Origin: Escherichia phage SM_A8
Sequence record: PP920553.1
Direction: 5' to 3' (one strand)
DNA length: 44,559 nucleotides
Position numbers and translations under genes: made by a program. The notes beneath the pieces are model-generated. The model did no database searches. It saw nothing but the letters and a program-made list of their open reading frames with translations, and had not been told where the DNA came from. Positions 3,512 through 43,268 of this stretch are shown here, one piece after another. Position 1 is the first letter of the stretch. Every line of letters begins with the position of its first letter.

Positions 3512-4598
3512 TCAACATTTGGCGGATCGCATGATCCGCCGTCACATCTTCACCCAGCGCCTGAGCAATGACCAGGCGCGGAGGGTGCTGGCTATGTGGG
3601 AGAAGTTCCGGCCTACATTACTGGGAAAGCTGACCGAGTTGCTTGATGGCAAATCGTCAATGAACAACAAGGCACTTACCACACTGTTAACGCAACTCGA
3701 CAAGACCGTCAAAACGGAACTGCGCACCGAGTTTAAGGCGTTGGCTGAAAGCCTTCAGGAGTTCGCCGACACCGAGGCTGATTATCTCGCCGACACATTA
3801 ACGGCAGCGATCCAGCCGGTAGTCGCCGTACCGGCGGTCGAGGTGGTTGGCGTAGTGACCGGCGCGCAGATCGCAGCAACGGCAATGAAAAACCCGTTCC
3901 AGGGCAATACCATGATGCAATGGCCTGACTCACTTTCTGAGTGGACCAGGACGCAGATCGGTAATCAGGTGCGGGCGGGATTCATCCAAGGCAAGCCAAC
4001 GATGGAAATTATCGCGGACGTGAGGCGCGCGCTAGGCGGTCGTAGTGCGCAAGCCATCTCAAGCGTTGTTAAGTCCGCAGTAAACCACTATGCGGCGACT
4101 GCCCGCGAACTAATGGTAAAAGCAAATGACGATATTCTCGAAGGTCGCCAATGGTTATCTACATTGGACACACATACTTCTCCCATGTGCCAGCTACGCG
4201 ATCGCCTGTTTTATCCGGTTGATGTTACTCCCGACACCAAAGGAAAGCGCGGCGGGAAAGTGGTGGCGGGGTCACAGTATGGCGCTGGCCCAGGCAAGCT
4301 GCATTATTGCTGCCGGTCGACGGAGACGTGGAAAGTCAAAGGCATGGAAGATTGGCCCAGTGGTAAGCGTCCGGCACTGAAGGCCGACGCGGGTCGATTG
4401 CTGAGTGAGCAGGTAGACGCGCAGACTGATTTCTTCTCATGGGTGCAGCGCCAGCCGCGCCATATCCTGGAAGAATTATATGGAGTGCAACGCGCCGACC
4501 AGATTATGCGCGGCATGAAAGTGCCGAAGATGTTCACCGATTCTGGCGAACTGATGACTATTGCACAGCTTAAAAACCGGGGGTTATGGCGTGATTAA
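3495..4598 (+). CDS. head morphogenesis protein (Mu F / SPP1 gp7-like)
   Basis: 367-aa ORF overlapping portal stop; position and composition typical of minor head morphogenesis proteins. Confidence 0.6.
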   Translation: MAKTINQHLADRMIRRHIFTQRLSNDQARRVLAMWEKFRPTLLGKLTELLDGKSSMNNKALTTLLTQLDKTVKTELRTEFKALAESLQEFADTEADYLADTLTAAIQPVVAVPAVEVVGVVTGAQIAATAMKNPFQGNTMMQWPDSLSEWTRTQIGNQVRAGFIQGKPTMEIIADVRRALGGRSAQAISSVVKSAVNHYAATARELMVKANDDILEGRQWLSTLDTHTSPMCQLRDRLFYPVDVTPDTKGKRGGKVVAGSQYGAGPGKLHYCCRSTETWKVKGMEDWPSGKRPALKADAGRLLSEQVDAQTDFFSWVQRQPRHILEELYGVQRADQIMRGMKVPKMFTDSGELMTIAQLKNRGLWRD

Positions 4599-4920
4599 AT
4601 ATGCAGCGATTGGACTGGTTATCGGTCTGGCGGTAGGATTCTGGCTAGGTGACTCCTATCGCGCTGGCGTAGTGGCGGAGGCGGCGCAAGAAGCGCAAGC
4701 CCAAGCCCAACGGCAGCAAACTAAAGTAATCGAGCGCTCCGTGCAGGCAGAACAAGCCCGCGACGTGGAATACCGGACTATCACAAAAGAGGTTGTTAAA
4801 TATGTTACGCGCCCTAACCGCCCTGATTGTAGTTTTGACGCTGAGCGCGTGCGGATCAAGCAGCGTGCCGTTGATGCCGCTAACGGAGTCGGCACTGCGA
4901 CCGCCGTGCAAGTTCGATAA
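4591..4920 (+). CDS. i-spanin (Rz-like)
   Basis: GTG start overlapping upstream stop; N-terminal TM segment IKYAAIGLVIGLAVGFW then charged Q/A/E-rich periplasmic region; contains an embedded +1 frame lipoprotein gene. Confidence 0.5.
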   Translation: MIKYAAIGLVIGLAVGFWLGDSYRAGVVAEAAQEAQAQAQRQQTKVIERSVQAEQARDVEYRTITKEVVKYVTRPNRPDCSFDAERVRIKQRAVDAANGVGTATAVQVR

Positions 4921-5032
4921 CCCGTCTGCGGACCCCGACGAAGATTTGATGATTGACGTGAAAAATATGGAATGCGGGGCGAAGCTGAGGGCGCAGGTGT
5001 TGGAGTTGCAGCAAATAATTAAGGGGCCGTAA
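4802..5032 (+). CDS. o-spanin (Rz1-like outer-membrane lipoprotein)
   Basis: RBS AAAGAGG 9 nt upstream; signal peptide with lipobox LSAC, proline-rich mature part; +1 frame overlap with Rz-like gene and extends past it. Confidence 0.55.
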   Translation: MLRALTALIVVLTLSACGSSSVPLMPLTESALRPPCKFDNPSADPDEDLMIDVKNMECGAKLRAQVLELQQIIKGP

Positions 5033-11771: not shown

Positions 11772-12090
11772 AAGCGGGACAGGCGGGACGTCCCGTTTTG
11801 TCCCGCCTCTGTAAAACTGCATATCTACTCACTTCCACTGCATAAACTCAAAACGGGACAAGCGGGACGTCCCGTTTTGTCACGCCCTGTAAATATGCAT
11901 ACCTATGCAGATTTCGTGCATAAACCAAACGGGACAAAAAGCGGGACAAACAAGGGGCGGGACAAAGCGGGACAGCACCCCAGTCCCGCCAGTGCTGCCG
12001 CGGGGTTTAGCCGATCGGGACAGGCGGGACAAAGCCCAGTCTTTCAGACTAGACGGGGGTCAATGGCCCCCCTCGTCTGAGACTGAATAA
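11772..12090. repeat. GCGGGACA repeat array region, including 173-bp element copy A (11918-12090)
   Basis: at least 10 direct CGGGACA/CGGGACG copies plus inverted GTCCCGCC copies; two ~80-bp tandem units (11772-11917) then a 173-bp element ending in a GC-rich hairpin; colinear copy at 39640-39812. Confidence 0.7.
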
Positions 12091-22316: not shown

Positions 22317-24032
22317 ATGGCAGCGGGTACGCTATCAGTAACGAACAACAGCAAGGCGGTAGTAGGGGTCGGCACGACGTTTACCGCGTTTAAAGCTGGC
22401 GACTTCTTAACGCTGGTGGTAGGACAAGTCCCATACACCGTGGCAATCGCGTCCATTGAAAGCGCAACCGCGCTCACGCTGGTGTTGCCGTTCGACGGCC
22501 CAACGGCAACCGGCCTTGCGTGGGATGGCGTTAAGCGCGACACCATGTCACTGGCGACGATGGGCGTTACCGTACAGGCACAAAAAGCATTGCGCTTGAT
22601 GATCGCAGATGAAAACAACTGGCGTGCAATCTTCGGCGACGCTGAAGAAATCACCGTGACGCTACCTAACGGGCAGGTTATGCAGGGAATGTCATGGGGC
22701 TATCTGTCGTCTTTGCTTAAGAACGTAGACCCAGTTGAGATGCGCGACCTGCAACAGCAAGCCGTAACAGCGAAAAACCAGGCAGTTACGGCTAATGGGC
22801 AAGCGGAAGCGGCACGCGACGCTGCCGTAACAGCGAAAAACCAGGCAGTTACGGCTAAGGGGCAAGCGGAAGCGGCACGCGACGCTGCGAACACGGCTAA
22901 GACTGGCGCGGAGGCGGCCCGCAATCAGGCCGAACAATTCGCTAATAGTGTTAATACTGAAAACCTACTTGCGAAGGCCAACAACTTAAGCGATGTTGCG
23001 GATATGGGTGTAACGCGCGAAAACATTGGCGTAGACCGCCTATCGCAAAACATAACCAGCGGCGAAACACAAATCAGGACTGCGGCGAAGAATAAATGGA
23101 TCTTCGTTAAGGAAAATGGCGACTGGGGCGGGTGGGATAATGCCAACAATAAAGCCATGCCGCTGCCGATTGCATTCGGTGGTACGGGGCGCGGCGATAA
23201 CGTCGCCGAGTTCCGCCAATTCAAATCAAACGGCGACACCCAAGATGGGTTAATCATTACGCAGAACGACAACGGATTCGGTGGTGTGGGCTGGGCCGAT
23301 TCCGCGGATAAAGTACGCTGGCGTATGGGCATCGACGAAGCCTCTGGCCATTTTAAAATATACTCATACGACTCCGCGGGAGCGTATCGAGACACCGTCC
23401 TCGAGATCACCGGAGTAGGAGTCGGTGGCATGGTGTGGTCCCGTGATATTACCGTGCGCCCGACGACGGCAGTTCCTGCGCGGTCTTTCGTTCTAAACAA
23501 CGGAAAAGCTACCGTCCCGGCTGGTAACTTCCGCACGATGTGGGATACGGTTAATATCAATAGTAACCAGATCTATAAATATTTTGAGAAGGGAGACGGC
23601 ACTGGCTTTACAGTCAATTGGCCCTCATCTGGTGGTGTTATTGCCCTCCAGGGTACATCAGGAAGGGACTTTAAGAAAGATATTACCGACGCGGACGTTA
23701 CCGAAGCGGTTGCACGCATTGAACAAATGCGCATGGTGCGCTACGTGTATAAGGACGATGTGAAGGAGCGCGTCCGCTTCGGCATCATTGCCGAAGAAGC
23801 AGAAGAGATTGCGCCTCAATACATCAAACACCGTGAGGAGACGTACGATGTGGAGGTGGACCCCGAGACTAACGCCATCGTCGGGGGTAAGACGCGCGAC
23901 CGTCCGTCGGTGGACGTTAACCCTATCGTGATGGACTTGATGGGGTGCGCACAATATGCGATCGCTGAGTGTAAACGCCTGGCGGCGGAAGTGGAGGATT
24001 TGAAAGCCGAGATCGCGGCGTTGAAGAAATAA
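22317..24032 (+). CDS. tail fiber protein with C-terminal intramolecular chaperone (peptidase S74-like) domain
   Basis: ATG 22317 with GAGGA RBS (track start 22290 is TTG); 63-bp tandem repeat at 22761-22886; C-terminus matches the S74 chaperone pattern (RFGIIAEEAEEIAPQYI ... LAAEVEDLKAEIAALKK). Confidence 0.7.
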   Translation: MAAGTLSVTNNSKAVVGVGTTFTAFKAGDFLTLVVGQVPYTVAIASIESATALTLVLPFDGPTATGLAWDGVKRDTMSLATMGVTVQAQKALRLMIADENNWRAIFGDAEEITVTLPNGQVMQGMSWGYLSSLLKNVDPVEMRDLQQQAVTAKNQAVTANGQAEAARDAAVTAKNQAVTAKGQAEAARDAANTAKTGAEAARNQAEQFANSVNTENLLAKANNLSDVADMGVTRENIGVDRLSQNITSGETQIRTAAKNKWIFVKENGDWGGWDNANNKAMPLPIAFGGTGRGDNVAEFRQFKSNGDTQDGLIITQNDNGFGGVGWADSADKVRWRMGIDEASGHFKIYSYDSAGAYRDTVLEITGVGVGGMVWSRDITVRPTTAVPARSFVLNNGKATVPAGNFRTMWDTVNINSNQIYKYFEKGDGTGFTVNWPSSGGVIALQGTSGRDFKKDITDADVTEAVARIEQMRMVRYVYKDDVKERVRFGIIAEEAEEIAPQYIKHREETYDVEVDPETNAIVGGKTRDRPSVDVNPIVMDLMGCAQYAIAECKRLAAEVEDLKAEIAALKK

Positions 24033-32951: not shown

Positions 32952-33734
32952 TTAACGGCGGCGACGTTTACGTGGTGCTTCGTCTTCGTCGTCGTCCTCA
33001 TCTTCGTCATCGCGTGGCTTACGACGTTTGCGAGGTTTTTCATCTTCCTCATCGTCGTCGTCATCGCGGCGCTTGGATTTCTTGGACTTGCGCGGCTTGT
33101 CATCTTCATCATCGTCATCACGACGTTTTGACTTTTTGGACTTGCGCGGTGCTTCGTCTTCGTCGTCGTTGTCCAGGTCTTCATCGGAGCAAGAAGACCC
33201 GCCACCTCCGAAGGCTTCGCCGTCTTCACGGAATCGCAGACCCAGCAAGCCAGCACCGAGTCCCTTGCCGTTGGTATTGTTCCACGCCCAAATATCCAGG
33301 GACACATTGCAATAACAACCGGAGTAGATCTCCTGGCCTTCAATCTCGTCGCCGTCGATGGTCAGACCTTGTTCAGTCTGCTTCTCGCCGAGTGACGTTT
33401 GAATGATTGGTTGTTTGAACGATTTGGCGTTGATGTACAACATGCCTTCAAATTCTTCGGTTACTTCGTCACGCTCGTCACCGTCGCGAACTGCGCATTC
33501 CTTAGAATCCTGGGCGTAGTGGCGGTCCATCCACTTATCAGCATTCTTCTCGGATTTCAGCTTGTCGGTGAGCACTGCGCGCGCTGCCGCTTCCACTTTG
33601 TCCACCTGCGGATCTTCTTTATCAAGAAGAATCACTGCACGGTATGCCGGTTTTTGTCCATCCTGTTTAGGGGTATCACGTTCCCAAATTTTAAGGAAAC
33701 ATACGCGCACATTTTTCAGGTTGACTTTAGCCAT
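32952..33734 (-). CDS. hypothetical protein with repetitive charged C-terminal tail (possible ssDNA-binding protein)
   Basis: ATG 33734 with GAGGA RBS; N-terminus MAKVNLKNVRVCF; C-terminal alternating poly-D/E and PRKSKKSKRR blocks from tandem DNA repeats. Confidence 0.5.
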   Translation of the reverse strand: MAKVNLKNVRVCFLKIWERDTPKQDGQKPAYRAVILLDKEDPQVDKVEAAARAVLTDKLKSEKNADKWMDRHYAQDSKECAVRDGDERDEVTEEFEGMLYINAKSFKQPIIQTSLGEKQTEQGLTIDGDEIEGQEIYSGCYCNVSLDIWAWNNTNGKGLGAGLLGLRFREDGEAFGGGGSSCSDEDLDNDDEDEAPRKSKKSKRRDDDDEDDKPRKSKKSKRRDDDDDEEDEKPRKRRKPRDDEDEDDDEDEAPRKRRRR

Positions 33735-35968: not shown

Positions 35969-36484
35969 TTAATCTTCCAGTTCGAAATAGGTTTCGACGA
36001 TTTCTTTTAGCTCTTTGTGGAAGTCTTCGACGTCGTCATCTTCCAGCTTGGCGATTGATTTGATCTCGAACGATTCCAGCAGGTCGTCGAATTCGTCGTT
36101 CGCGTCATCATCATCACCGCCTGCAATAATAGCGGCATACTGCTTGATTTCGTCGCGCATTTCGACCAGCGGATCGGCATCTTTCTTACCTTTGCCTTTC
36201 GCCGGTGCTTTCTTAGCCTTAGCCGGTTTTTCGTCTTCGGCATCGTCGTCGTCATCTTCTACGACTTCTTTTTTAGCCTTACCTTTCGCCGGTGCTTTTT
36301 TAGATTTAGCCGGTTTTTCGTCTTCAGCTTCATCGTCGTCATCTTCGACAACTTCTTTTTTGGCCTTAGACGGCTTCTTGTCTTCCTGCTTACCAACGGC
36401 AGCGCCAACGGTTTCATAATGCTTTGCAATGGTTTCCAGTGCTACTACGCCGCGAGTGATCAGGTTTACGATTTGCTCAAACAT
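35969..36484 (-). CDS. acidic/lysine-rich repeat protein (first gene of leftward early operon)
   Basis: ATG 36484 with GGAGAT RBS; two 29-aa repeats (KKEVVEDDDDEAEDEKPAKSKKAPAKGKA) from an 87-bp tandem DNA repeat; poly-D C-terminal region. Confidence 0.55.
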   Translation of the reverse strand: MFEQIVNLITRGVVALETIAKHYETVGAAVGKQEDKKPSKAKKEVVEDDDDEAEDEKPAKSKKAPAKGKAKKEVVEDDDDDAEDEKPAKAKKAPAKGKGKKDADPLVEMRDEIKQYAAIIAGGDDDDANDEFDDLLESFEIKSIAKLEDDDVEDFHKELKEIVETYFELED

Positions 36485-39639: not shown

Positions 39640-39812
39640 GCATAAAGTAAGCGGGACAAAAAGCGGGACAAACAAGGGGCGGGACAAAGCGGGACAGCAC
39701 CCCTGTCCCGCCACGGATGGCGCGGCTTCCAGAGGAGCGGGACAGGCGGGACAAACCCCAGTCTTTCAGACTAGACGGGGGTCAGTGGCCCCCCTCGTCT
39801 GAGACTGAATAA
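39640..39812. repeat. 173-bp repeat element copy B with GCGGGACA array and GC-rich hairpin
   Basis: colinear with 11918-12090, no indels; CGGGACA copies at identical offsets (12, 24, 40, 50, 98, 107); central ~26 nt diverged. Confidence 0.7.
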
Positions 39813-41700: not shown

Positions 41701-41718
41701 TTATGCAAGCGTGATATA

Positions 41719-41752
41719 GTCCCAGTGAGATAAAACTTACTGGGACTTTTTT
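41719..41752 (+). terminator. intrinsic terminator abutting the holin start codon
   Basis: 8-bp stem GTCCCAGT / ACTGGGAC, 12-nt loop, T6, then ATG 41753. Confidence 0.55.
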
Positions 41753-42043
41753 ATGGATAAGCTAAACGAGTGGTTATTCGCCCTTGCGTGTCTTGCTGGC
41801 GGCTTCGTAGGCGCACGCATTCATGGCGAGGCAACGAAAGGGCCGTTGAACTTCGTTTTATATGTCGTAGTTGGCTTCCTGTGTGCCATATTTGGCGCAC
41901 CGGCTATTGCCGAGTGGGCTGGTTTGTCGGGGGAGCGCACTGTCGCCGGTTTTGGCTTCGTAACCGCAATCTTCTGGATGCCAATCGCCGACCGGATCAG
42001 GGAGACTATTGAGTCGTTCCGACTTCCGGGGGGTGCAAAATGA
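41753..42043 (+). CDS. holin-like membrane protein (three predicted TM segments)
   Basis: 96 aa with three hydrophobic segments and charged C-terminus; upstream of endolysin with overlapping starts. Confidence 0.45.
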   Translation: MDKLNEWLFALACLAGGFVGARIHGEATKGPLNFVLYVVVGFLCAIFGAPAIAEWAGLSGERTVAGFGFVTAIFWMPIADRIRETIESFRLPGGAK

Positions 42044-42285
42044 TTATCTCCGTCCTGTTGTTTGTTATCATCGGGGCTTCGTCCCTGTTTAACGTGTATG
42101 CGCCGTCCGTCCGGGATGGCATTTTCGGTCGGGTGCTGTATCTGTTAACGGCAATGGTCTGTATTATCGGATTGCTGCAAACAGGCGACGTATCGGATAC
42201 CACCTGGACCGCGTTAATCTGGCTGTTTGCATTGCGCACCCTGCGTAATGCTGTTTTGAATGGGGTAAAACATGCGATTCAGTGA
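42040..42285 (+). CDS. membrane protein (second holin or antiholin candidate)
   Basis: 81 aa, three hydrophobic segments; ATGA-coupled between holin-like gene and endolysin. Confidence 0.4.
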   Translation: MIISVLLFVIIGASSLFNVYAPSVRDGIFGRVLYLLTAMVCIIGLLQTGDVSDTTWTALIWLFALRTLRNAVLNGVKHAIQ

Positions 42286-42763
42286 CAACGGTCTACGATT
42301 TACGGCAGCATGGGAGCAATTCAGCCCAGTGCCGTATTTTGCGACTAAGAAAGAGCAGGCCCGCGGCCTGTATACCTGGGGCTATGGTCACACCGGCACT
42401 AATCCGCCGCGGAGCATTACCCGTGCGGAAGCACTGGAGCTACTCAAGCGCGACGTGGCGTATGCCGAGAACTGGGTAAACAAGTACGCACACCCGAGCA
42501 TCAACCAGGCGCAATTCGACGCGCTGGTGGACCTGGTTATCAATGCCGGTCCTGGTCCGATCATGCCGGACGACGTCGCCGGAGACTTCGACGATGCGAT
42601 CCGCCTGGGTGACTGGGCAAAGGTCCGTGCTACGCTGCCACAATTCCGCAAGCAAGGCGGGGCAGTGCTCAAGGGGCTTGTCCGTCGTGCAATCGGCAGG
42701 CAGGCACTATTTGATGGTAAGCAGTGGGACGTTGCCGAGAAAATCGGGCGAAACGCCGCATAA
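42272..42763 (+). CDS. endolysin (GH24 lysozyme-like)
   Basis: catalytic Glu context AAWEQF, GYGHTG, ITRAEALELLKRD, INQAQFDALVDLVINAG, GLVRRAIGRQALF match the P22/lambda lysozyme pattern. Confidence 0.8.
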   Translation: MRFSDNGLRFTAAWEQFSPVPYFATKKEQARGLYTWGYGHTGTNPPRSITRAEALELLKRDVAYAENWVNKYAHPSINQAQFDALVDLVINAGPGPIMPDDVAGDFDDAIRLGDWAKVRATLPQFRKQGGAVLKGLVRRAIGRQALFDGKQWDVAEKIGRNAA

Positions 42764-42779
42764 TACGAGGAGACACAGT

Positions 42780-43092
42780 ATGTTAAAAAGCATTCTTGAT
42801 CATAACGCCGACGCGCTCGCCGCGCTGGCTAAAACCGAAGACCCAGGCGCTCGCCGCGCTGGCTAAAACCGAAGACCCAGGCGCTCGCGCCATTATCGCG
42901 GACACTATCAGTCATGCTGGCGTATTTGACGCGAAGCTGCCTAGCCCGCCGCCACAGGCGCTCGCCGCGCTGGCTAAAACCGAAGACCCAGGCGCTCGCG
43001 CCATTATCGCGGACACTATCAGTCATGCTGGCGTATTTGACGCGAAGCTGCCTAGCCCGCCGCCACAGGAAGAATCTGACCCAGTGACGTAA
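42780..43092 (+). pseudogene. repeat-protein gene with apparent frameshift inside tandem repeats
   Basis: ATG 42780 with GAGGAG RBS reads 28 codons to TAA 42864-42866; the rest (two 111-bp repeat units ending at TAA 43090-43092) continues in the +1 frame; one 36-bp sub-repeat copy is 2 nt short. Confidence 0.4.
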
Positions 43093-43100
43093 ACAATCAA

Positions 43101-43123
43101 GCCCGGTTAATTCCGGGCTTTTT
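43101..43123 (+). terminator. rho-independent terminator
   Basis: GCCCGG-ttaatt-CCGGGC followed by T5. Confidence 0.6.
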
Positions 43124-43187
43124 ATTGCTTGACTCGCAACCAACACAGGGGCCATACTGCAACCAATCAACTGGAGGAGTAATCAAG

Positions 43188-43268
43188 ATGGCACGTAAAG
43201 ATATTTGGGTATTAGCGATCTGGACCACCGCGGCTTTTATCGGCATGGTTATTTGCGAATTGATATAG
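43188..43268 (+). CDS. small hydrophobic peptide (26 aa)
   Basis: strong RBS GGAGGAG 8 nt upstream; MARKDIWVLAIWTTAAFIGMVICELI; promoter-like TTGACT-N18-CATACT with 8-mer copies upstream. Confidence 0.3.
   Translation: MARKDIWVLAIWTTAAFIGMVICELI

What the first reader, a model, noticed from the sequence alone, without database searches (positions are those of the whole stretch)
42780..43092. Repeat-rich gene after endolysin is interrupted by a 2-nt discrepancy inside a 36-bp tandem repeat
From ATG 42780 the frame reads MLKSILDHNADALAALAKTEDPGARRAG and stops at 42864-42866. The continuation (two 111-bp units encoding ALAALAKTEDPGARAIIADTISHAGVFDAKLPSPPPQ, then EESDPVT, stop 43090-43092) is in the +1 frame. 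The second sub-repeat copy (42849-42882) is 34 nt instead of 36. This could be a sequencing or assembly error in repeats, a real frameshift mutation, or repeat-mediated on/off switching.
Basis: seen in the sequence. Interest (0 to 1): 0.5.

Follow-up and report, generated by a model that had tools for sequence, protein, structure and literature searches.

The report
Duplication-broken capsid decoration gene
The small gene after the endolysin of this E. coli Dhillonvirus phage encodes a capsid decoration protein, and in this genome alone it is knocked out of frame by a fresh 34-base tandem duplication, next to a second in-frame 111-base one; this is an ordinary isolate-specific mutation, not a new mechanism.

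Summary
There is no 36-nt unit missing 2 nt. There are two perfect tandem duplications. One is 34 nt (42813-42880), bounded by an 8-nt GCGCTCGC microhomology, and 34 mod 3 = 1 breaks the frame. The other is 111 nt (42847-43068) and is in frame.

The window is a whole Dhillonvirus (HK578-like) genome. All 146 GenBank relatives that carry the gene have an intact single-copy core, and none of the 60 best DNA matches has either duplication. The normal gene encodes 53-55 aa, or 135-137 aa with a C-terminal Big_2 Ig-like domain in some relatives. Neither duplication junction occurs in the viral or metagenome collections; the 34-nt junction is also absent from the genome collection.

The intact protein matches PDB 9zys chain H, "Decoration protein gp64" (E = 5.6e-28). 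That entry also holds a major capsid protein close to the window's. The core is under strong purifying selection (pN/pS 0.087).

Every other gene shared with the nearest relative reads through cleanly, so a generally error-prone assembly is unlikely. The most likely reading is a recent replication-slippage mutation that leaves a 28-aa stub and, by inference, undecorated capsids. Reads are needed to exclude an assembly chimera. Interest is low.

The parts
42272..42763 (+). Endolysin (context; upstream gene of the same late lysis transcription unit)
   Evidence: Pfam PF00959 Phage_lysozyme E=2.5e-20; PHROG endolysin families
42767..42772 (+). Shine-Dalgarno GAGGAG of the decoration gene, 7 nt before the ATG
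   Evidence: Read directly; conserved in relatives (alignment A1)
42780..42866 (+). Truncated reading frame: 28 aa, made of residues 1-25 of the decoration protein plus RAG, then TAA
   Evidence: Residues 1-25 are identical to SM_W22 gp57 and to PDB 9zys_H
42813..42846 (+). 34-nt unit, copy 1 (GCGCTCGCCGCGCTGGCTAAAACCGAAGACCCAG)
   Evidence: TRF period 34, 100%; exact identity of the copies
42847..42880 (+). 34-nt unit, copy 2: the frame-breaking tandem duplicate. It is also the first 34 nt of 111-nt unit 1
   Evidence: Absent from all 60 best relatives
42881..42888 (+). 8-nt microhomology GCGCTCGC that closes the 34-nt periodic run. The same octamer sits at 42813, 42847, 42958 and 42992
   Evidence: In the unduplicated relatives Opt212, L009 and L016 the two octamers lie 34 nt apart
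42847..42957 (+). 111-nt unit, copy 1 (37 codons: ALAALAKTEDPGARAIIADTISHAGVFDAKLPSPPPQ)
   Evidence: TRF period 111, 100%; exact identity
42958..43068 (+). 111-nt unit, copy 2. The periodic run 42844-43069 implies a 4-nt CAGG microhomology
42867..43092 (+). Out-of-frame (+1) remainder of the decoration gene, stop at 43090-43092. Frame B has no usable start: only TTG 42796 without an SD, and GTG 43084
43099..43125 (+). Intrinsic terminator (AAGCCCGG-loop-CCGGGCTT plus T run) closing the lysis/decoration unit
   Evidence: conserved in relatives; annotated as a terminator in PTXU06

Best explanation
The gene at 42780-43092 is this Dhillonvirus's small capsid decoration protein. Its wild type is 55 aa: an N-terminal two-helix hairpin, which I infer binds the capsid, followed by a proline-rich acidic tail.

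In this genome two recent replication-slippage (microhomology-mediated) tandem duplications hit the gene. A 34-nt segment flanked by the 8-nt direct repeat GCGCTCGC was duplicated, shifting the frame by +1 after codon 25. A 111-nt segment was also duplicated, in frame. The order of the two events cannot be resolved. '34 first' gives 4 nt of microhomology for the second event; '111 first' gives 1 nt.

Translation from the normal ATG now ends after 28 aa, which keeps helix 1 only. No start codon serves the downstream frame. The phage therefore most likely makes no functional decoration protein and builds undecorated capsids, which it evidently tolerates.

The allele is intrinsically unstable. 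Slippage between the 34-nt copies would restore the frame. Recombination between the 42-nt repeats 145 nt apart would restore the exact wild type in one step.

Shown: the anatomy, the uniqueness of the allele, the identity of the gene and the purifying selection on it. Inferred: the slippage mechanism, loss of function, dispensability and revertibility.
For: 1. Exact 34-nt and 111-nt head-to-tail copies are present.
2. Unduplicated near relatives (Opt212, L009, L016) carry GCGCTCGC twice, 34 nt apart. That is the substrate slippage needs.
3. All 60 best phage records span 327-341 nt instead of 486 and align in 3 pieces, so they lack both duplications.
4. All 146 records with the gene have the 43-aa core in one tblastn piece.
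5. The 34-nt junction is absent from the viral, metagenome and genome collections; the 111-nt junction is absent from the viral and metagenome collections.
6. The reconstructed 55-aa protein matches PDB 9zys_H 'Decoration protein gp64' with E=5.6e-28. That entry also holds 'Major capsid protein gp09', which matches the window's capsid protein with E=1.9e-230.
7. The gene belongs to phrog_11068 (E=2.3e-38).
8. Long-form relatives carry a Big_2 domain (PF02368, E=2.5e-10 and 2.9e-12). That domain resembles those of Hoc-like and other decoration proteins.
9. Core pN/pS is 0.087 over 16 distinct sequences.
10. The AlphaFold model has helices at residues 2-18 and 22-35 (pLDDT 85-89) and a disordered tail. 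The 28-aa stub therefore loses helix 2.
11. 54 of 57 SM_W22 CDS align to the window as one full-length, single-frame HSP. Only this gene is split across frames. The other two either have no homologue in the window or lie in replaced, divergent DNA, so there is no general indel problem.
12. Other disrupted alleles exist in metagenome and read-archive contigs: a 2-nt deletion (L017) and two different 35-nt deletions (L019; L021/L022). This argues the gene can be lost.
Against: No reads are available, so a consensus or assembly artefact cannot be excluded. In particular, two variants from different subpopulations could have been stitched into one contig.

The allele is unique: 0 of 146 isolate genomes have a broken core. 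That raises the prior for an artefact or a laboratory-acquired mutation.

Two independent events within about 150 nt, with no later substitutions, is somewhat improbable for neutral mutation. It may point to one complex template-switch event or to selection.

Loss of function, absence from the virion and dispensability are inferred, not measured. The decoration assignment rests on a depositor's molecule name in one PDB entry; I found no paper behind it.
Confidence: 0.7

Rival explanations
1. Assembly or consensus artefact. The phage actually has an intact gene or a simpler allele, for example only the in-frame 111-nt duplication. Alternatively, the lysate is a mixture of wild type, a 34-nt duplication variant and a 111-nt duplication variant, and the assembler walked both graph cycles once. 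That would give a contig that no single molecule carries.
For: The allele is unique among 146 isolate genomes and absent from every collection scanned. Two nested perfect repeats are the kind of structure where graph traversal can combine variants. No reads can be inspected.
Against: An assembler cannot invent the copy-to-copy junction. The only sequence shared by the two contexts is 8 nt, far below any usual k. The junction must therefore be present in reads, at least in a subpopulation. Assemblers usually collapse tandem repeats rather than expand them. The rest of the genome shows no frameshift against the nearest relative. The region lies 1.5 kb from the contig end, not at a circularisation seam.
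Confidence: 0.2
2. Evolved reversible on/off switch (contingency locus) or programmed +1 recoding that controls capsid decoration.
For: The allele can in principle revert by slippage or recombination between the 34/42-nt repeats. The gene is an accessory surface protein, the class that contingency loci often control. Other disrupted alleles exist in environmental contigs.
Against: There is no copy-number variation in any relative. The unit is 34 nt and present only twice, not a short multi-copy tract. The other disrupted alleles are unrelated deletions at different sites, not repeat-number changes. Relatives encode one uninterrupted ORF, so no conserved recoding signal can exist. No slippery heptamer leads to the +1 frame, and there is no start codon for frame B. 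The region does not fold better than shuffles as single-stranded DNA (z = +0.74).
Confidence: 0.04
3. Selected loss of function. The duplication was enriched because losing the decoration protein was advantageous, for example by escaping a host defence that senses it, or by adapting to laboratory propagation.
For: At least four independent disruptive alleles are seen: the window, L017, L019 and L021/L022. Small Dhillonvirus proteins are known defence triggers that phages lose to escape, for example Ksap1 sensed by KpAvs2 (PMC11564622). A Tmn-escape mutant of Dhillonvirus SM_A8 carried 'CDS67 Major tail protein Pro53fs'. That is probably this gene, which several records mis-annotate that way, although the authors attribute the escape to Nmad5 (PMC11846954).
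Against: No defence system is known to sense this protein. [quoted passage not shown] The core is under strong purifying selection across the genus and is intact in all 146 isolates. The identity of SM_A8 CDS67 could not be verified.
Confidence: 0.1

Closest known systems
Dhillonvirus capsid 'Decoration protein gp64' (PDB 9zys chain H; = Sodalis phage SO-1 gp57 / HK578_058 / phrog_11068 / 'lysozyme downstream ORF')
   Same: It is the same gene at the same position, between the endolysin and the terminator. The reconstructed 55-aa product aligns over residues 1-54 with E=5.6e-28. Window residues 1-25 and 12-55 are identical to SM_W22 gp57.
   Different: The window's copy carries a 34-nt out-of-frame duplication and a 111-nt in-frame duplication. 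It can only yield a 28-aa stub. No other record has these duplications.
Capsid decoration proteins with an Ig-like display domain (T4 Hoc and Hoc-like proteins, T5 pb10)
   Same: Long-form relatives (PTXU06, L007, L014, L015) join the 45-aa N-terminal module through a Pro-rich linker to a Big_2 domain. That domain hits 'Hoc-like protein ORF90' (7x30) and 'Decoration protein gp29' (9kmh). T5 pb10 has the same 'anchor plus Ig' logic (PMC5292684, title and abstract). Hoc and pb10 are dispensable for growth (my own knowledge).
   Different: The window's lineage has the short form with no Ig domain. The helical-hairpin anchor has no detectable similarity to the Hoc or pb10 anchors. The gene sits in the lysis cassette, not the head module.
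Microhomology-mediated tandem duplication by replication slippage, as characterised in E. coli (my own knowledge of the field)
   Same: The copies are perfect and head to tail. The duplicated unit is bounded in the ancestral sequence by short direct repeats (8 nt, and 4 or 1 nt). The product is unstable and can revert.
   Different: Nothing distinctive, apart from two nested events in one small gene.
Phase-variable contingency loci (simple-sequence-repeat switches)
   Same: A repeat-number change toggles the reading frame of a surface-protein gene.
   Different: The unit is 34 nt and present twice, not many copies of 1-9 nt. There is no polymorphism among relatives. The repeat is not ancestral to the gene.

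Membership tests
Dhillonvirus decoration protein (PDB 9zys_H / phrog_11068) | Significant sequence similarity to the solved decoration protein and to the PHROG profile | tested here: met
   Reconstructed 55-aa product: E=5.6e-28 to 9zys_H and E=2.3e-38 to phrog_11068
Dhillonvirus decoration protein (PDB 9zys_H / phrog_11068) | Conserved position: directly after the endolysin, before the intrinsic terminator, in a Dhillonvirus genome whose major capsid protein matches that of the same PDB entry | tested here: met
   Synteny in L001-L004 and L018; capsid protein match E=1.9e-230 to 9zys_A
Dhillonvirus decoration protein (PDB 9zys_H / phrog_11068) | Uninterrupted ORF able to encode the whole two-helix module | tested here: not met
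   The frame is broken after codon 25, with a stop at 42864-42866. The model places helix 2 at residues 22-35. The window therefore holds a disrupted allele, not a functional member
Dhillonvirus decoration protein (PDB 9zys_H / phrog_11068) | Protein physically bound to the capsid of this phage | not testable with these tools
   Needs virion mass spectrometry or cryo-EM
Replication-slippage tandem duplication | Exact head-to-tail copies, with the unit bounded by a short direct repeat in the unduplicated ancestor | tested here: met
   Periodic runs 42813-42888 (2x34+8) and 42844-43069 (2x111+4). GCGCTCGC occurs 34 nt apart in unduplicated Opt212, L009 and L016
Phase-variable contingency locus | Repeat copy number varies among related genomes | tested here: not met
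   No duplication in the 60 best records. The core is a single piece in 146 of 146 records. The duplication junctions were found in no collection scanned
Phase-variable contingency locus | Tract of many short (1-9 nt) units prone to frequent slippage | tested here: not met
   Two copies of a 34-nt unit and two of a 111-nt unit
Programmed ribosomal frameshift | Two overlapping frames and a slippery site conserved in relatives | tested here: not met
   Relatives have one continuous ORF. No slippery site leads to the +1 frame. No stable structure
Spanin / outer-membrane disruptor (the usual gene after an endolysin) | N-terminal transmembrane domain or lipobox, or a cationic amphipathic peptide | tested here: not met
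   The protein has no hydrophobic segment and a net charge of about -5. The spanin pair is elsewhere, at 4591-4893 and 4802-5032 with an LSAC lipobox. HK578 is listed with an overlapped spanin in PMC6139136

The most novel reading that the evidence does not exclude
The capsid decoration gene of Dhillonviruses is a recurrent target of loss. Independent frameshifting duplications and deletions (this window, L017, L019, L021/L022, possibly the SM_A8 escape mutant) would arise because shedding the decoration protein is selected under some conditions, for example when a host defence senses it or during laboratory passage. The duplication allele, which can revert precisely through its own repeats, would then act as a crude reversible 'decorated/undecorated' polymorphism in phage populations.
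Probability: 0.1. Interest if true: 0.45.

Novelty: new member of a known kind. Interest (0 to 1): 0.2.

Why it matters
Practically, annotators should call this locus a disrupted decoration-protein gene. The 28-aa ORF, the 98-aa or 107-aa mechanical ORFs, and the labels 'major tail protein' or 'hypothetical protein' are all wrong for it.

The work also links a widely unannotated Dhillonvirus ORF (gp57 / HK578_058 / phrog_11068) to a solved capsid decoration protein. It shows that this protein comes in a short form and in an Ig-domain form.

If the sequence is correct, this isolate is a natural decoration-minus mutant that could revert to wild type in one step. It would be a convenient isogenic pair for testing what the decoration protein contributes, such as capsid stability or adhesion. 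Beyond that, it is an ordinary slippage mutation.

Tried and rejected
1. A 36-nt unit with a 2-nt loss. Rejected: TRF and direct comparison give a perfect 34-nt period, and relatives have one copy.
2. Spanin or disruptin role for the post-endolysin gene. Rejected: the protein is acidic with no transmembrane segment or lipobox, and the spanin pair lies at 4.6-5.0 kb.
3. Programmed frameshift or reinitiation. Rejected: there is no conserved second frame, slippery site, start codon or structure.
4. Hairpin-driven slippage. The region folds no better than shuffles as single-stranded DNA (z = +0.74).
5. Junction searches in the viral, metagenome and genome collections found nothing.
6. Identity with the KpAvs2 trigger Ksap1. 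Rejected: that is a different gene.
7. Checking that SM_A8 'CDS67 Pro53fs' is this gene failed, because PP920553 is not in the collection.
8. Foldseek of the AlphaFold model against PDB gave only non-significant generic helical hairpins. That library ends in April 2026 and evidently lacks 9zys.
9. No paper describing 9zys or a Dhillonvirus decoration protein was found.
10. The 63-nt repeat in the tail fibre gene was examined as a possible second assembly anomaly. It lies in a region where relatives also differ in length, so it is uninformative.

Full report
**What is in the sequence**

The window is a complete genome of an E. coli Dhillonvirus (HK578-like siphophage). It is colinear with records such as SM_W22 and JLBYU60 at 92-94% identity. 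It is not itself in the phage collection.

The 3' end carries a late unit bounded by two intrinsic terminators, at 41718-41747 and 43099-43125. The unit holds two holin-family genes (41753-42043 and 42040-42285), an endolysin (42272-42763, PF00959) and the gene in question.

From ATG 42780, with the RBS GAGGAG 7 nt upstream, the frame reads MLKSILDHNADALAALAKTEDPGARRAG and stops at TAA 42864-42866. The rest of the gene runs to 43090-43092 in the +1 frame.

**The real anatomy of the repeats**

Tandem Repeats Finder reports a period-34 array at 42813-42888 (2.2 copies, 100%) and a period-111 array at 42844-43069 (2.0 copies, 100%). Direct comparison shows the three 34-nt segments, and the two 111-nt units, to be letter-for-letter identical.

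The exactly periodic runs are 2x34+8 nt and 2x111+4 nt long. The 34-nt unit is therefore bounded by the octamer GCGCTCGC, and the 111-nt unit by CAGG. There is no 36-nt unit that lost two bases. A 34-nt segment (34 mod 3 = 1) was duplicated, and a 111-nt segment (37 codons) was duplicated in frame.

Deleting one 34-nt copy gives an open 92-aa frame. Deleting 145 nt gives MLKSILDHNADALAALAKTEDPGARAIIADTISHAGVFDAKLPSPPPQEESDPVT, 55 aa.

**Comparison with relatives**

Orthologues in bov22_1, Opt212, Sponge, SM_W22 and twelve IMG/VR contigs are single-copy ORFs. They encode 53-55 aa, or 135-137 aa in PTXU06, L007, L014 and L015, which add a C-terminal Big_2 Ig-like domain.

- All 60 best phage records align across the locus in three pieces spanning 327-341 nt instead of 486. 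They lack both duplications.
- A tblastn of the 43-aa core finds it intact and in one piece in 146 of 146 records.
- The 34-nt junction occurs nowhere in the viral, metagenome or genome collections. The 111-nt junction occurs nowhere in the viral or metagenome collections.
- The nearest unduplicated sequences (Opt212, L009, L016) already carry GCGCTCGC twice, 34 nt apart. More distant relatives have GCGCACGC or GCGCTTGC at one of the two sites. This lineage therefore had exactly the substrate that replication slippage needs.

**Is it a real gene, and what does it encode?**

Across 16 distinct core sequences, pN/pS is 0.087. Nearly all differences are third-position changes. The gene is therefore protein-coding and under purifying selection.

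It belongs to phrog_11068, which has no assigned function, and has no Pfam family. The reconstructed protein matches PDB 9zys chain H, 'Decoration protein gp64' (55 aa), with E=5.6e-28 over residues 1-54. The same entry contains seven chains of 'Major capsid protein gp09', which match the window's capsid protein with E=1.9e-230. Further entries (10lj, 10xw, 23gd) hold the matching tail protein.

So a Dhillonvirus virion has been solved, and this small protein was built as a capsid decoration. If the entry's two gp64 chains alongside seven capsid-protein chains represent a T=7 icosahedral asymmetric unit, there would be 120 copies per capsid; that is my inference. I found no paper describing the entry, so the assignment rests on the depositors' molecule name.

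The assignment is coherent with two other results:

- An AlphaFold model shows a two-helix hairpin (helices 2-18 and 22-35, pLDDT 85-89) followed by a disordered Pro-rich acidic tail.
- In long-form relatives that tail becomes a linker to a Big_2 domain. The domain resembles those of Hoc-like and other decoration proteins. This is the anchor-plus-Ig architecture known from T5 pb10 and T4 Hoc.

The gene is not a spanin. It is acidic and lacks a transmembrane segment or lipobox. An overlapped i-/o-spanin pair lies at 4591-4893 and 4802-5032, in line with the overlapped spanin listed for HK578 (PMC6139136).

**Consequence of the lesion**

The stub keeps residues 1-25, which is helix 1 and the turn. 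The +1 frame has no usable start: only TTG 42796 without a Shine-Dalgarno sequence, and GTG 43084. No slippery site leads into it, and relatives offer no conserved second frame. As single-stranded DNA the region folds no better than shuffled sequence (z = +0.74).

I therefore infer that no functional decoration protein is made and that this phage's capsids are undecorated. Dispensability is plausible because other disrupted alleles exist in environmental assemblies:

- a 2-nt deletion within the second GCGCTCGC octamer, at codons 24-25 (L017);
- a 35-nt deletion (L019, found in two contigs);
- a different 35-nt deletion in the Ig part (L021/L022, from two sources).

A Tmn-escape mutant of Dhillonvirus SM_A8 is reported with 'CDS67 Major tail protein Pro53fs' (PMC11846954). 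Several records mislabel this very gene as 'major tail protein', so it is probably the same gene. I could not verify this.

**Real mutation or artefact?**

Against a generally poor assembly: 54 of 57 SM_W22 CDS align to the window as a single full-length HSP in one frame. Only this gene is split across frames. The other two either have no homologue in the window or lie in replaced, divergent DNA.

Against a graph artefact: the two contexts that meet at the 34-nt junction share only 8 nt. No k-mer assembler could create the junction unless reads contain it.

What cannot be excluded is a chimera. The contig could combine two variants, one with the 34-nt duplication and one with the 111-nt duplication, that exist on different molecules in a mixed lysate. 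The allele could also be a minority or laboratory-acquired one. I put about 0.7 on a real allele as assembled, about 0.2 on an artefact or chimera, and the remainder on more exotic readings.

**Order of events and stability**

If the 34-nt event came first, the 111-nt event used 4 nt of microhomology (CAGG, created by the first junction). If the 111-nt event came first, it used 1 nt. This weakly favours '34 first', but it is not decisive. A single complex template switch is also possible.

Because 42-nt identical segments lie 34, 111 and 145 nt apart, the allele can revert. Loss of 34 nt restores the frame. Loss of 145 nt restores the exact wild type. That is passive instability, not evidence of an evolved switch. 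No relative shows copy-number variation, and the repeats are not ancestral.

**Verdict**

The feature is an isolate-specific, slippage-type tandem duplication that inactivates a small, normally conserved capsid decoration gene. It is a new allele of a known kind of event. The useful by-products are the functional assignment of a widely unannotated Dhillonvirus ORF and a candidate natural decoration-minus mutant. Interest is low (0.2).

Noticed in passing
window 11798-12032 and 39651-39754 (plus 29253): The motif GCGGGACAA occurs 9 times against 0.61 expected. It is clustered in two intergenic arrays that overlap the TRF repeats at 11775-11974 and 39649-39696. These may be regulator-binding or iteron-like sites.
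   Followed up: partly
window 4591-4893 and 4802-5032: An overlapped i-spanin-like ORF and a 76-aa lipoprotein ORF (LSAC lipobox) sit in the head-gene region, about 37 kb from the holin-endolysin cassette. The lysis functions are therefore split across the genome (HK578 spanin in PMC6139136).
   Followed up: partly
window 43129-43268: Just after the terminator lie a promoter-like TTGACT-18-CATACT, a strong RBS (GGAGGAG) and a 26-aa hydrophobic mini-ORF (MARKDIWVLAIWTTAAFIGMVICELI). The mini-ORF is conserved in PTXU06 and matches no family.
   Followed up: no
L002 2009-2422; L007, L014 and L015 from 1501: Some Dhillonviruses carry a long form of the decoration gene (135-137 aa) with a C-terminal Big_2 Ig-like domain. 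Several GenBank records annotate the gene, even the short form, as 'major tail protein', apparently through this domain.
   Followed up: yes
L017 1501-1614; L019 1201-1374; L021 1201-1413 and L022 707-919: Independent frameshifted alleles of the same decoration gene occur in read-archive and metagenome contigs: a 2-nt deletion within the second GCGCTCGC octamer (codons 24-25), and two different 35-nt deletions.
   Followed up: partly
window 22761-22888: A 63-nt x 2 (98%) in-frame repeat lies in the lateral tail fibre gene. Relatives differ in length across this segment.
   Followed up: partly
window 36180-36368 and 33044-33169 (minus-strand genes): Imperfect 87-nt (x2.2, 87%) and 54-nt (x2.3, 73%) tandem repeats rich in GAC/GAA-type codons, probably encoding acidic low-complexity protein segments.
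   Followed up: no
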